From the UHGV virus genome UHGV-0388326: 39,034 nt of DNA; one strand, written 5' to 3'. The translations under genes were made by a program, and so were the position numbers. This DNA comes from a virus. This document shows, piece by piece, positions 22,206 through 22,520 of this stretch. Under the pieces are notes generated by a model. The model was not told where the DNA came from. It ran no database searches and worked only from the letters and a program-made list of their open reading frames with translations. Within the stretch, counting starts at the first letter, position 1; each line of letters starts with the position of its first letter.

Positions 22206-22360
22206 GGTGGTTATCTCCACTTAGTGATTTTAATCACCACCGCAACGCCAATTACTGGTGGTGAACTGGACAAGGTTGGCGTACCGGCCTAAGTGGTACC
22301 GGCGTCCTTTCGGACCCCTGCCCAGCCCACCATAATTCGGATATGGCTGTGCTTAACGCA

Positions 22361-22384
22361 TAAAAAAACCACGTCTGGCGTGGT
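22361..22384 (-). terminator. Rho-independent terminator between LexA-boxed gene and ant
   Basis: minus strand ACCACG-CCAGA-CGTGGT followed by TTTTTTT. Confidence 0.65.
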
Positions 22385-22474
22385 ATGCGCCACTTAGTAA
22401 CTCGGGACGCCAATCCCGGCACTGGATTTTGCCAGTACCCGATTACTATGGCACAAGAGGAGTGCGATGTAAAT

Positions 22475-22489
22475 TTACCTCAAAGGTAA
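22475..22489. promoter_or_regulatory. TTACC-N5-GGTAA site
   Basis: TTACCTCAAAGGTAA. Confidence 0.5.
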
Positions 22490-22520
22490 ATATAAGCACT
22501 TCACTTGGTAATTGCAAACC

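What the first reader, a model, noticed from the sequence alone, without database searches (positions are those of the whole stretch)
22221..22520. 300-bp untranslated, structured region upstream of ant with repeated CCACTTAG motifs and an internal terminator
No plausible ORF on either strand. On the minus strand it contains a TTACC-N5-GGTAA site (22475-22489), a strong terminator (22361-22384), a GNRA-type hairpin (GTCC-GAAA-GGAC) and three CCACTTAG(T) motifs (22217-22225, 22391-22399 direct; 22290-22298 inverted). It could be the 3' UTR of the LexA-boxed gene plus the ant promoter/leader, or could encode a small regulatory RNA controlling ant (compare the sar antisense RNA of the P22 immI region).
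Basis: partly seen in the sequence, partly recalled or inferred. Interest (0 to 1): 0.5.

Follow-up and report, generated by a model that had tools for sequence, protein, structure and literature searches.

The report
P1-type antisense RNA switch controlling antirepressor
The 300-bp "untranslated" stretch upstream of the phage antirepressor gene holds two known small-RNA genes, an IsrK-like leader RNA and a P1-type C4 antisense RNA; the repeated CCACTTAG motifs are the antisense RNA's recognition loop and its two target sites, so the finding is real but is an unannotated copy of a known system.

Summary
The terminator, GAAA hairpin, TTACC-N5-GGTAA site and three CCACTTAG copies are all present; two coordinates are off by 1 nt. 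All three CCACTTAG copies in the 39-kb window fall within 181 bp.

On the minus strand Rfam finds a C4 antisense RNA (RF01695, 22254-22337, 66 bits) and an isrK RNA (RF01394, 22362-22438, 63.5 bits). The layout matches the phage P1 immI operon:
- promoter;
- leader carrying target sites a1 (UUGGCGU) and b1 (CUAAGUGG), ending in an intrinsic terminator;
- C4 RNA with b' (CCACUUAG, hairpin loop) and a' (ACGCCAA, multiloop);
- second target copies a2 and b2, with b2 overlapping the ant Shine-Dalgarno.

Across 98 homologous modules there are 14 a' types and 48 b' loops. The a2 site matches its own a' in 98/98 modules, against 0/3052 non-cognate pairs.

Most likely the processed C4 RNA blocks ant translation, and the terminated IsrK-like RNA acts as a target-mimic decoy. 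Unlike P1 (icd) and Gifsy-1 (orf45), no coupled upstream ORF is present.

The window is a phiV10/epsilon15-like phage. The module recurs in 244 phage records and 455 of 5426 E. coli genomes, unannotated where inspected. It is a new member of a known kind and of modest interest.

The parts
22475..22489 (.). TTACC-N5-GGTAA inverted repeat abutting the -35 hexamer. It is a probable operator of the prophage repressor and spans about -51 to -37 of the predicted start.
   Evidence: 15 sites with at most 1 mismatch in the window, against 0.67 expected. They cluster around the HTH_3 repressor ORF 33656-34240. The site is conserved in front of the same promoter in the Uetakevirus and related Klebsiella/Escherichia phage homologues L001-L007.
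22445..22473 (-). Promoter-like site TTTACA-17 nt-CATAGT with an upstream TG; predicted transcription start near 22438.
   Evidence: The isrK model begins at 22438. The same geometry is seen in Gifsy-1.
22362..22438 (-). IsrK-like / c4-a1b1 leader RNA of 77 nt: hairpin 1, hairpin 2 displaying a1, a single-stranded stretch with b1, and an intrinsic terminator.
   Evidence: RF01394 at 63.5 bits (gathering score 50). RF03163 c4-a1b1 at 43.4 bits (gathering score 46.7). Fold. Hairpin 1 covaries.
22407..22413 (-). a1 target site UUGGCGU, in the 6-nt loop of leader hairpin 2.
22362..22384 (-). Intrinsic terminator of the short leader RNA (ACCACG-CCAGA-CGUGGU followed by U7).
   Evidence: It corresponds to the 3' hairpin of the isrK model.
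22254..22337 (-). C4 antisense RNA gene. By homology to the annotated P1 ends, the predicted mature RNA is 22257-22331, with an acceptor-like stem and an ACCA tail.
   Evidence: RF01695 at 66 bits (gathering score 45). MFE -43.6 kcal/mol, z = -5.0. RNAalifold on 73 homologues gives 27 pairs, 14 with compensatory changes. P1 c4 ends.
22304..22315 (-).
   Evidence: all five stem pairs covary.
22289..22296 (-). b' recognition sequence CCACUUAG in the 9-nt loop of C4 hairpin 2.
22276..22282 (-). a' recognition sequence ACGCCAA, the unpaired multiloop segment of C4.
22245..22251 (-). a2 target site UUGGCGU, in the loop of a small hairpin (GUAA/UUGC) 3 nt after C4.
   Evidence: the hairpin stem covaries, with 28 stem types.
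22234..22241 (-). Conserved leader box GGUGGUGA, a perfect complement of the C4 3' strand UCACCACC (22257-22264). Its role is unresolved.
   Evidence: repeat I23.
22217..22224 (-). b2 target site CUAAGUGG. Its last two G are the first two bases of the ant Shine-Dalgarno GGAG (22215-22218).
21495..22205 (-). ant, the regulated gene: an antirepressor with a Bro-N domain and a C-terminal domain.
   Evidence: Pfam PF02498 at 3.4e-19. phrog_130 'anti-repressor Ant' at 1.5e-54. Overexpression of the antirepressor at the same locus in phage ZX5 shifts the phage towards lysis (PMC9782041).
22521..22778 (-). Context: an 85-aa ORF behind a perfect LexA box (22800-22815) and a second TTACC-N5-GGTAA site (22855-22869). 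It is a paralogue of the Ant C-terminal domain and a probable SOS-controlled small antirepressor.
   Evidence: BLASTP 42% identity, 1e-19. phrog_450. LexA box. Operator site.

Best explanation
The region is the RNA control module of a P1-immI-type antirepressor operon carried by a phiV10/epsilon15-like temperate phage. A promoter at 22473-22445 starts transcription near 22438.

Most transcripts probably stop at the intrinsic terminator (22384-22362). This gives a 77-nt IsrK-like RNA that displays a1 (UUGGCGU, hairpin loop) and b1 (CUAAGUGG, single-stranded).

Read-through transcripts contain the C4 RNA (22337-22254). By analogy with P1, this is excised at a tRNA-like acceptor stem with an ACCA tail, giving a stable RNA of about 75 nt. 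Its hairpin-2 loop b' (CCACUUAG) and multiloop a' (ACGCCAA) pair with a2 and b2 in the ant leader. b2 lies at -19 to -12 of the ant AUG and overlaps the Shine-Dalgarno GGAG. The duplex therefore sits inside the ribosome footprint and blocks Ant synthesis, keeping the prophage repressor active and conferring immunity.

The short IsrK-like RNA carries the same a and b sequences. It should compete for C4 as a decoy, so that Ant output depends on the balance of terminated and read-through/processed RNA.

Shown here: family membership, the fold, the site geometry, and three-way covariation of the pairing sites. Inferred, not shown: processing, repression of translation, the decoy role, and control of the promoter by the repressor.
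For: - Rfam hits above the gathering score for C4 and isrK on the ant strand, with c4-a1b1 just below threshold.
- The order and spacing of sites match the P1 annotation of a1, b1, c4, a2, b2 and 'repression of icd ant translation'.
- In the MFE fold of C4, b' and a' are exactly the unpaired loop and multiloop.
- The C4 helices covary: 14 of 27 pairs show compensatory changes in 73 sequences.
- Intermolecular covariation in 98 modules with 14 a' types and 48 b' loops: the cognate a2 is an exact complement in 98/98 and a1 in 93/98, against 0/3052 and 0.07% for non-cognate pairs. Cognate b2 shows 7 or more nt of complementarity in 79%, against 5.8% non-cognate.
- Close relatives have swapped single sites with all three copies changing together: phiV10 has b = CUAAAAGG with b' = CCUUUUAG, and phiv142-3 has a = UUGGUCU with a' = AGACCAA.
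- a1 and a2 both sit in 6-nt hairpin loops whose stems covary.
- The downstream gene is an antirepressor.
- The experimentally studied homologue, Gifsy-1, has the same layout. There IsrK ends at its terminator, a stable processed RNA (STnc1160) lies downstream, and IsrK supplied in trans raises antirepressor translation 139-fold, whereas IsrK-G28A and IsrK-G31A do not. G28/G31 and their compensating partners C162/C159 map exactly onto a1 and a'.
- IsrK and STnc1160 are highly expressed in Gifsy-1 lysogens (PMC7067206).
Against: - There are no expression data for this phage. Processing, stability and repression are inferred from P1 and Gifsy-1.
- Nearest-neighbour cofolding gives no net gain for C4 binding to the leader, but that model cannot represent loop-loop kissing complexes.
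- The b pairing is only 8 nt and the a pairing only 7 nt.
- In Gifsy-1, cis mutations in a1 (G28A, G31A) increased antirepressor translation rather than decreasing it. A pure decoy model does not predict this, and it points to extra cis-folding effects.
- The Gifsy-1 authors explain activation through orf45 translational coupling, which cannot apply here.
- If the repressor shuts off the only promoter, C4 would not be made in a lysogen. The operator position (-51 to -37) does not tell repression from activation.
Confidence: 0.8

Rival explanations
1. Gifsy-1-type positive control only. The C4-like segment is not an independent trans-acting repressor. It is part of a self-inhibiting fold of the read-through mRNA, and the short IsrK-like RNA acts in trans to open that fold and switch ant translation on.
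For: This is the published model for the closest experimentally studied homologue. In the window, complementarity between a1 and a' extends to 11 nt at 91% (I8), so cis pairing is possible.
Against: The Gifsy-1 model needs orf45, which starts at the AUG of C4 and is translationally coupled to the antirepressor. In the window that frame stops after 14 codons at the UAG inside b', and no ORF ends at ant. The model does not explain why a2 and b2 copies covary with a' and b' in 98/98 modules. STnc1160 is a stable separate RNA in Gifsy-1.
Confidence: 0.25
2. P4 CI-type mechanism. The C4-like RNA acts mainly on transcription: by pairing with a1/b1 next to the leader terminator and with a2/b2, it causes premature termination so that ant is not transcribed.
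For: b1 ends 5 nt upstream of the terminator stem. The IsrK paper notes structural homology to P4 SeqA/CI and raises this idea. In P1, translational block of icd leads secondarily to loss of ant transcription (established knowledge; Biere et al. 1992, not held in the library).
Against: b2 overlaps the ant Shine-Dalgarno with the same spacing as b2 and icd in P1, which fits translational control. No terminator-like site lies between C4 and ant. In Gifsy-1, constitutive STnc1160 did not relieve IsrK toxicity, so that test did not support the termination idea.
Confidence: 0.2
3. The region encodes a small protein (the 56-aa GTG ORF 22252-22422, or an orf45/icd-like peptide) and the conservation is protein-level.
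For: The 56-aa ORF hits phrog_20442 (3.5e-7). Related records annotate CDSs over this stretch, for example 'Ash family protein' and orf34 of VT2-Sakai.
Against: ORFs across C4 fall in all three frames, with different starts, among 92 modules and among the closest relatives. Indels of 2 nt and loop-length changes that are not multiples of three separate close relatives. The substitutions are compensatory for RNA helices. No ORF here is coupled to ant.
Confidence: 0.03
4. A P22 sar-like cis-antisense RNA from the plus strand, or simply a 3' UTR plus promoter with no RNA function.
Against: No promoter-like site was found on the plus strand. Pfam gave no match for the two ORFs downstream of ant or the 56-aa ORF, and only a sub-threshold DUF724 match for the 85-aa upstream ORF. 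Two curated RNA families match the minus strand, and the region shows extensive structural and intermolecular covariation.
Confidence: 0.02

Closest known systems
Phage P1/P7 immI operon: c4 antisense RNA, icd, ant (Rfam RF01695 C4 and RF03163 c4-a1b1)
   Same: The order is the same: promoter, a1, b1, hairpin with U-run, C4, a2, b2, Shine-Dalgarno, all on one strand. The C4 fold is the same: a long closing stem, a tetraloop hairpin, and a second hairpin whose loop is b', with a' in the multiloop. Spacing is similar: a2 begins 3 nt after C4, and b2 ends 10-11 nt before the AUG. The regulated product is an antirepressor.
   Different: There is no icd gene, so b2 abuts the Shine-Dalgarno of ant itself. 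The recognition sequences differ: P1 has a = UUGACAG and b = GUUAGUG. The upstream operator is the TTACC-N5-GGTAA repeat rather than the P1 C1 operator. Ant here is a 236-aa Bro-N protein. The host element is an integrating podovirus, not a plasmid prophage.
Salmonella Gifsy-1 isrK-orf45(STnc1160)-anrP locus (Rfam RF01394 isrK; Hershko-Shalev et al. 2016, PMC4825925)
   Same: The isrK and C4 hits have the same spacing, and a' is identical (ACGCCAA). The GGUGGUGA leader box is shared. b2 abuts the antirepressor Shine-Dalgarno in both. In Gifsy-1 the short RNA and a processed downstream RNA have both been detected experimentally.
   Different: Gifsy-1 has orf45, which starts at the C4 AUG and overlaps the anrP start. 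In the window that frame is closed after 14 codons. The b specificity differs (Gifsy-1 b' = CGGUGAU). The genomic context differs: Gifsy-1's module lies in the lambdoid nin/Q region and the window's lies beside the tailspike gene. Gifsy-1 also has isrJ downstream.
Satellite phage P4 immunity: CI RNA with seqA / seqB / seqC
   Same: A processed stable RNA is cut from a leader transcript, and its internal sequence is complementary to repeats both upstream and downstream on the same transcript. The resemblance is noted in PMC4825925.
   Different: P4 CI acts by premature transcription termination of the replication operon, not on an antirepressor ribosome-binding site. I did not compare sequences with P4 here.
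P22 immI sar RNA
   Same: Both are small RNAs that limit antirepressor synthesis in a locus next to the tailspike gene.
   Different: sar is transcribed from the opposite strand across the arc-ant junction and is fully complementary to its target. Here the regulator lies on the same strand and uses 7-8-nt loop contacts at repeated sites. No arc or mnt gene and no plus-strand promoter were found.

Membership tests
C4 antisense RNA (RF01695) | Covariance-model score above the curated gathering score | tested here: met
   66.0 bits against 45; full-length match 1-87.
C4 antisense RNA (RF01695) | Long closing stem enclosing two hairpins, supported by covariation | tested here: met
   The MFE fold equals the consensus fold. 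27 pairs, 14 with compensatory changes, across 73 homologues including P1.
C4 antisense RNA (RF01695) | Unpaired a' and b' segments complementary to a1/b1 upstream and a2/b2 downstream on the same strand | tested here: met
   Exact 7-nt and 8-nt complements at both positions. The three copies covary across 98 modules.
C4 antisense RNA (RF01695) | The b2 target overlaps the ribosome-binding site of the first gene of an antirepressor operon | tested here: met
   b2 at 22217-22224 overlaps GGAG at 22215-22218; the ant AUG is at 22205. Ant is identified.
C4 antisense RNA (RF01695) | Excision from the precursor (RNase P at the 5' end) to a stable RNA of about 77 nt | not testable with these tools
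   Only the sequence prerequisites are seen: an acceptor-like stem G22331...C followed by ACCA, aligned to the annotated P1 c4 ends.
C4 antisense RNA (RF01695) | An icd-like ORF between b2 and ant whose translation is needed for ant expression (P1 arrangement) | tested here: not met
   ant starts directly after b2, and no ORF of 25 aa or more ends at or overlaps the ant start. This is a feature of the P1 operon, not of the RNA family.
isrK (RF01394) | Covariance-model score above the gathering score, with its own promoter and an intrinsic terminator | tested here: met
63.5 bits against 50.
isrK (RF01394) | Downstream orf45 translationally coupled to the antirepressor (Gifsy-1 mechanism) | tested here: not met
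   The frame from the C4 AUG (22333) stops after 14 codons at the UAG in b'. ORFs are not conserved among relatives.
isrK (RF01394) | Hfq binding and trans-activation of antirepressor translation | not testable with these tools
   Shown only for Gifsy-1.
c4-a1b1 (RF03163) | Covariance-model score above the gathering score | tested here: not met
   43.4 bits against 46.7 at 22399-22451. The same bases are covered by the isrK hit. P1's own a1b1 leader scores 51 on c4-a1b1 and 35 on isrK, so the two families describe the same element.
P22 sar-type cis-antisense RNA | Promoter on the strand opposite to ant giving an RNA fully complementary to the ant ribosome-binding-site region | tested here: not met
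   No plus-strand promoter-like site in 22100-23000.

The most novel reading that the evidence does not exclude
One promoter makes both a repressor RNA and its own sponge. The terminated IsrK-like leader would be a structural mimic of the ant translation-initiation region: it has the same a hairpin loop, the same b sequence, and 19 nt of similarity around b. It would titrate the C4 antisense RNA, which is processed from the read-through fraction of the same transcripts. Terminator read-through would then set the Ant level and with it the lysis-lysogeny state. Because the a and b specificities assort independently (14 a' types and 48 b' loops seen), they would form a combinatorial immunity barcode that decides which co-resident prophages can silence each other's antirepressors. 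The prophage repressor, bound at -51 to -37, might activate this promoter rather than repress it, as lambda CI does at PRM.
Probability: 0.35. Interest if true: 0.5.

Novelty: new member of a known kind. Interest (0 to 1): 0.27.

Why it matters
It explains an apparently empty 300-bp gap in a whole genus of temperate phages (phiV10/epsilon15-like). It shows that their antirepressor is under P1-style antisense RNA immunity, stacked next to an SOS-controlled small antirepressor paralogue.

It links three literatures that use different names for the same module: P1 c4/a1b1, Gifsy-1 IsrK/STnc1160, and Rfam c4-a1b1. The published Gifsy-1 compensatory mutations fall exactly on the a1-a' pairing.

The module occurs in 455 of 5426 complete E. 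coli genomes and in Shiga-toxin phages upstream of ant, with no feature annotated under the listed matches. Antirepressor control affects prophage induction, so the a'/b' type of a prophage is a cheap sequence-level predictor of cross-immunity. None of this is a new principle.

Tried and rejected
- RNAcofold and duplexfold of C4 with the ant leader and with the IsrK-like RNA gave no net stabilisation. Shuffle controls were weak (26/500 and 96/500). These models cannot represent loop-loop kissing, so I set the result aside as uninformative rather than negative.
- My first parser for hairpin 2 demanded perfect 5-bp stems and recovered only 18 modules. I replaced it.
- The MAFFT alignment of whole modules misaligned the terminator hairpin, so its pair counts say nothing about the terminator. 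Only hairpins 1 and 2 of the leader were usable.
- ARAGORN finds no tRNA or tmRNA in the region, so the tRNA-like stem is not a tRNA gene.
- RNAalifold on the ant leader alone found only a weak 6-bp helix (-2.2 kcal/mol), so I do not claim a conserved SD-sequestering hairpin.
- The original P1 c4 papers (PMC312442, PMC196329) are not held. P1 facts rest on the GenBank annotation, on PMC8546580 and on my own knowledge.
- No literature was found describing C4 or IsrK RNAs, or the TTACC-N5-GGTAA operator, in phiV10/epsilon15-like phages.
- The protein-coding, sar-like and plain-UTR readings were rejected for the reasons given under the rival explanations.

Full report
**What is in the sequence**

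All features lie on the minus strand, which is the strand of ant. From 5' to 3' the interval reads as follows:
- The stop codon of an 85-aa ORF (22521).
- A TTACC-N5-GGTAA inverted repeat (22489-22475).
- A promoter-like site, TTTACA-17-CATAGT with an upstream TG (22473-22445).
- Two hairpins and a single-stranded stretch.
- A terminator-like hairpin with U7 (22384-22362).
- A 24-nt spacer.
- A very stable 84-nt fold (22337-22254; -43.6 kcal/mol, z = -5.0, no shuffle of 200 as stable).
- A 48-nt leader ending in GGAG-N9-AUG of ant (AUG at 22205).

CCACTTAG occurs three times in the whole window, and all three copies are here. TTGGCGT occurs at 22413-22407 and 22251-22245, and its complement ACGCCAA occurs at 22282-22276.

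**Identification**

A scan of the whole window against Rfam at gathering thresholds gave only three hits. One is a tRNA-Arg elsewhere. The other two fall inside the finding, both full-length and both on the minus strand:
- C4 antisense RNA (RF01695), 22254-22337, 66 bits against a threshold of 45.
- isrK (RF01394), 22362-22438, 63.5 bits against a threshold of 50.

A permissive scan added c4-a1b1 (RF03163, 'a1, b1 targets of C4 antisense RNA') at 43.4 bits against 46.7, over the same bases as isrK. Phage P1's own leader scores 51 bits on c4-a1b1 and 35 bits on isrK. The two Rfam families therefore describe one element: the upstream target-site leader of a c4 system with its terminator.

**Anatomy compared with P1**

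The P1 GenBank record annotates, in order, promoters P2c4/P1c4 with a C1 operator, a1, b1, the 77-nt c4 RNA, a2, b2 ('repression of icd ant translation'), icd and ant. The window has the same order and almost the same spacing:

| Feature | Window | P1 |
|---|---|---|
| Gap between a1 and b1 | 9 nt | 7 nt |
| Start of a2 after C4 | 3 nt | 3 nt |
| Gap between a2 and b2 | 20 nt | 22 nt |
| End of b2 to the AUG | 11 nt | 10 nt |

In the predicted C4 fold, the 9-nt loop of hairpin 2 is ACCACUUAG (b'). The 7 unpaired multiloop bases are exactly ACGCCAA (a'). The GNRA hairpin is C4 hairpin 1. The 'internal terminator' is the end of the IsrK-like leader RNA.

**Related sequences and covariation**

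The window is a phiV10/epsilon15-like phage (genus Uetakevirus). The best match is Escherichia phage HEMP4 at 97.7%. The 315-bp interval has distant matches in 244 phage records. These include Enterobacter, Klebsiella, Hafnia and Yersinia phages, and many Shiga-toxin phages, where the match lies immediately upstream of ant. It also has near matches in 455 of 5426 complete E. coli genomes, with no feature annotated under the eight best matches listed. phiV10's record marks only 'terminator' there.

Every fetched locus has the isrK and C4 pair. In close relatives, single recognition sites have been exchanged, and all three copies change together:
- phiV10 keeps a (UUGGCGU) but has b = CUAAAAGG with b' = CCUUUUAG.
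- phiv142-3 keeps b (CUAAGUGG) but has a = UUGGUCU with a' = AGACCAA.
- Klebsiella phage Kp4865-1 has a = UUGAGAC with a' = GUCUCAA.

A pattern scan of IMG/VR gave 98 genuine modules with 14 different a' heptamers and 48 different b' loops.
- The exact complement of a module's own a' is present at the a2 position in 98/98 and at the a1 position in 93/98.
- With a' taken from another module, the figures are 0/3052 and 0.07%.
- Cognate b2 shows at least 7 nt of complementarity in 79% of modules, against 5.8% for non-cognate pairs.

Within C4, 14 of 27 consensus pairs show compensatory changes in 73 sequences including P1. Leader hairpin 1 also covaries. Both a1 and a2 sit in 6-nt hairpin loops, and the a2 stem has 28 different complementary versions.

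**The experimentally studied homologue**

Gifsy-1 of Salmonella has the same layout between antQ and anrP: isrK at 34316-34240, C4 at 34214-34131, then a2, GGUGGUGA, b2 and the anrP Shine-Dalgarno. Hershko-Shalev et al. (PMC4825925) reported the following:
- IsrK ends at its terminator.
- Read-through gives an isrK-orf45-anrP mRNA that is transcribed but not translated.
- A stable processed RNA, STnc1160, lies downstream of IsrK.
- IsrK supplied in trans raises anrP translation 139-fold.
- IsrK-G28A and IsrK-G31A do not.

Numbering from +1 = 34316 places G28 and G31 inside a1 (U26-U32). It places their reported compensating partners C162 and C159 inside a' (A158-A164), in exactly the antiparallel register of a1-a' pairing. 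Their 'helix b-I' is therefore the c4 a1-a' interaction. Their double mutants did not return to the wild-type level (224 and 327 units against 4). That is expected if a' must also pair with a2. Both IsrK and STnc1160 are highly expressed in Gifsy-1 lysogens under all conditions tested (PMC7067206).

**Most likely mechanism here**

Transcripts from the promoter at 22473-22445 either stop at 22362, giving the IsrK-like RNA, or read through.

The read-through RNA yields C4. By alignment to the annotated P1 ends, the mature RNA should run from G22331 to about C22257. That is an acceptor-like stem followed by ACCA, which is the signature of an RNase P substrate. This last point rests on established knowledge of P1 c4 and was not tested here.

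C4 pairs through a' and b' with a2 and b2. b2 occupies -19 to -12 relative to the ant AUG and shares two G with the Shine-Dalgarno. A b'-b2 duplex would therefore lie within the 30S footprint and block Ant synthesis.

Ant has a Bro-N domain plus a C-terminal domain. Overexpression of the antirepressor at the same locus in the related phage ZX5 drives the phage towards lysis (PMC9782041).

The IsrK-like RNA carries the same a hairpin and the same b sequence. The similarity to the ant initiation region extends over 19 nt (D2). It should therefore compete with the ant mRNA for C4. The Gifsy-1 trans-activation data fit this decoy role, although the Gifsy-1 cis mutants show that intramolecular folding also matters.

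**How it differs from the known systems**

P1 places icd between b2 and ant. Gifsy-1 and the Shiga-toxin phages have an ORF (orf45, orf34) that starts at the AUG of C4 and overlaps the ant start. In the window that frame closes after 14 codons at the UAG inside b', and no ORF ends at ant. ORFs across C4 fall in all three frames among relatives. Control here must act on ant's own ribosome-binding site.

The promoter region is also lineage-specific. The Uetakevirus and related homologues L001-L007 carry TTACC-N5-GGTAA directly upstream of the -35 hexamer. P1, Gifsy-1 and the Shiga-toxin phages have other promoters.

**Surroundings**

TTACC-N5-GGTAA occurs 15 times in the window with at most one mismatch, against 0.67 expected. 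The sites cluster on both sides of a 194-aa HTH_3 protein that lacks a peptidase S24 domain (33656-34240) and in front of a cro-like ORF. It is therefore probably the operator of a non-cleavable prophage repressor.

One copy precedes the isrK promoter. Another (22855-22869) precedes the 85-aa ORF, which also has a perfect LexA box (22800-22815). That ORF is 42% identical to the C-terminal domain of Ant.

The locus thus seems to hold two antirepressor routes. One is a small SOS-controlled protein, as in phage 186 Tum and the Gifsy antirepressors (established knowledge; PMC3121763 listed). The other is a larger Ant under antisense-RNA control.

The operator at the isrK promoter spans about -51 to -37. 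That position resembles lambda OR2 at PRM, so I cannot say whether the repressor represses or activates this promoter.

**Unresolved detail**

All homologues carry GGUGGUGA between a2 and b2. It is a perfect complement of the C4 3' strand UCACCACC (I23). One module with CUGCCACC has GGUGGCAG instead, and P1 has CCUGCCACC with GGUAGCAGG. This suggests an alternative pairing in the precursor, or a third contact in trans. I could not decide between these.

**Verdict**

The 'regulatory RNA' reading is right, but the comparison should be with P1 c4, Gifsy-1 IsrK and P4 CI, not with P22 sar. The element belongs to curated families and is widespread, so it is a new, unannotated member of a known kind with a simplified (icd-less and orf45-less) architecture. 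Interest is modest.

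Noticed in passing
window 760, 778, 3887, 21415, 22475, 22855, 26263, 28440, 33522, 33584, 34296, 34344, 34681, 36627, 36689 (start of each 15-bp site): TTACC-N5-GGTAA occurs 15 times with at most 1 mismatch, against 0.67 expected. The sites cluster around a 194-aa HTH_3 repressor-like ORF (33656-34240, minus strand, no S24 domain) and a cro-like ORF (34395-34625). This looks like a dispersed operator set for a non-cleavable repressor, reminiscent of the scattered C1 operators of P1.
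   Followed up: partly
window 22521-22778 (-), LexA box 22800-22815: An 85-aa ORF lies behind a perfect LexA box (CTGTATATTTATACAG, the only one in the window). It is 42% identical to the C-terminal domain of Ant (phrog_450). It is probably an SOS-induced small antirepressor sitting directly upstream of the RNA-controlled ant.
   Followed up: partly
window 22234-22241 and 22257-22264: The leader box GGUGGUGA between a2 and b2 is the perfect complement of the C4 3' acceptor strand UCACCACC. It is conserved in all homologues and changes in step in L206 (CUGCCACC / GGUGGCAG). It may be an alternative precursor fold or a third contact. I did not find it described in the papers I could read.
   Followed up: partly
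window 22207-22225 versus 22380-22398: The b1 and b2 contexts are similar over 19 nt (79%), beyond the 8 nt that pair with C4. The short leader RNA therefore mimics the ant translation-initiation region, including the Shine-Dalgarno position (GGCG versus GGAG).
   Followed up: no
L252 (Gifsy-1 NC_010392) 34131-34316: The published IsrK compensatory mutation pairs (G28-C162, G31-C159) fall exactly on the a1 and a' heptamers of a C4 system. STnc1160 coincides with the Rfam C4 hit. The Gifsy-1 paper interprets the locus without reference to P1 c4.
   Followed up: yes
L052 (IMGVR_UViG_2671181028_000005) 9708-11109; also L119 and L036: Three complete isrK-C4 modules lie in tandem, 656 bp apart. Each has a different a'/b' combination and each is followed by a similar ORF (MATVPTSPFLKIEV...). 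This could be an array of several immunity specificities in one element.
   Followed up: partly
L008 1282-1965 (Hafnia phage yong2), L010 1563-1736 (VT2-Sakai orf34), window 22252-22422: Database CDS calls and a PHROG family (phrog_20442; 'Ash family protein'; 'SF0880-like') run across the isrK and C4 RNA genes. At least some look like ORF miscalls caused by nucleotide-level conservation of the RNAs.
   Followed up: partly
window 3488-3564 (-): A tRNA-Arg (anticodon UCU) gene is carried by the phage.
   Followed up: no
window 25119-26210 (-) and 28497-29747 (+): An acyltransferase-3 family gene (a likely O-antigen modification / serotype-conversion function) and a tyrosine integrase lie downstream of the tailspike gene. 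This is consistent with a complete phiV10-like temperate phage genome.
   Followed up: no
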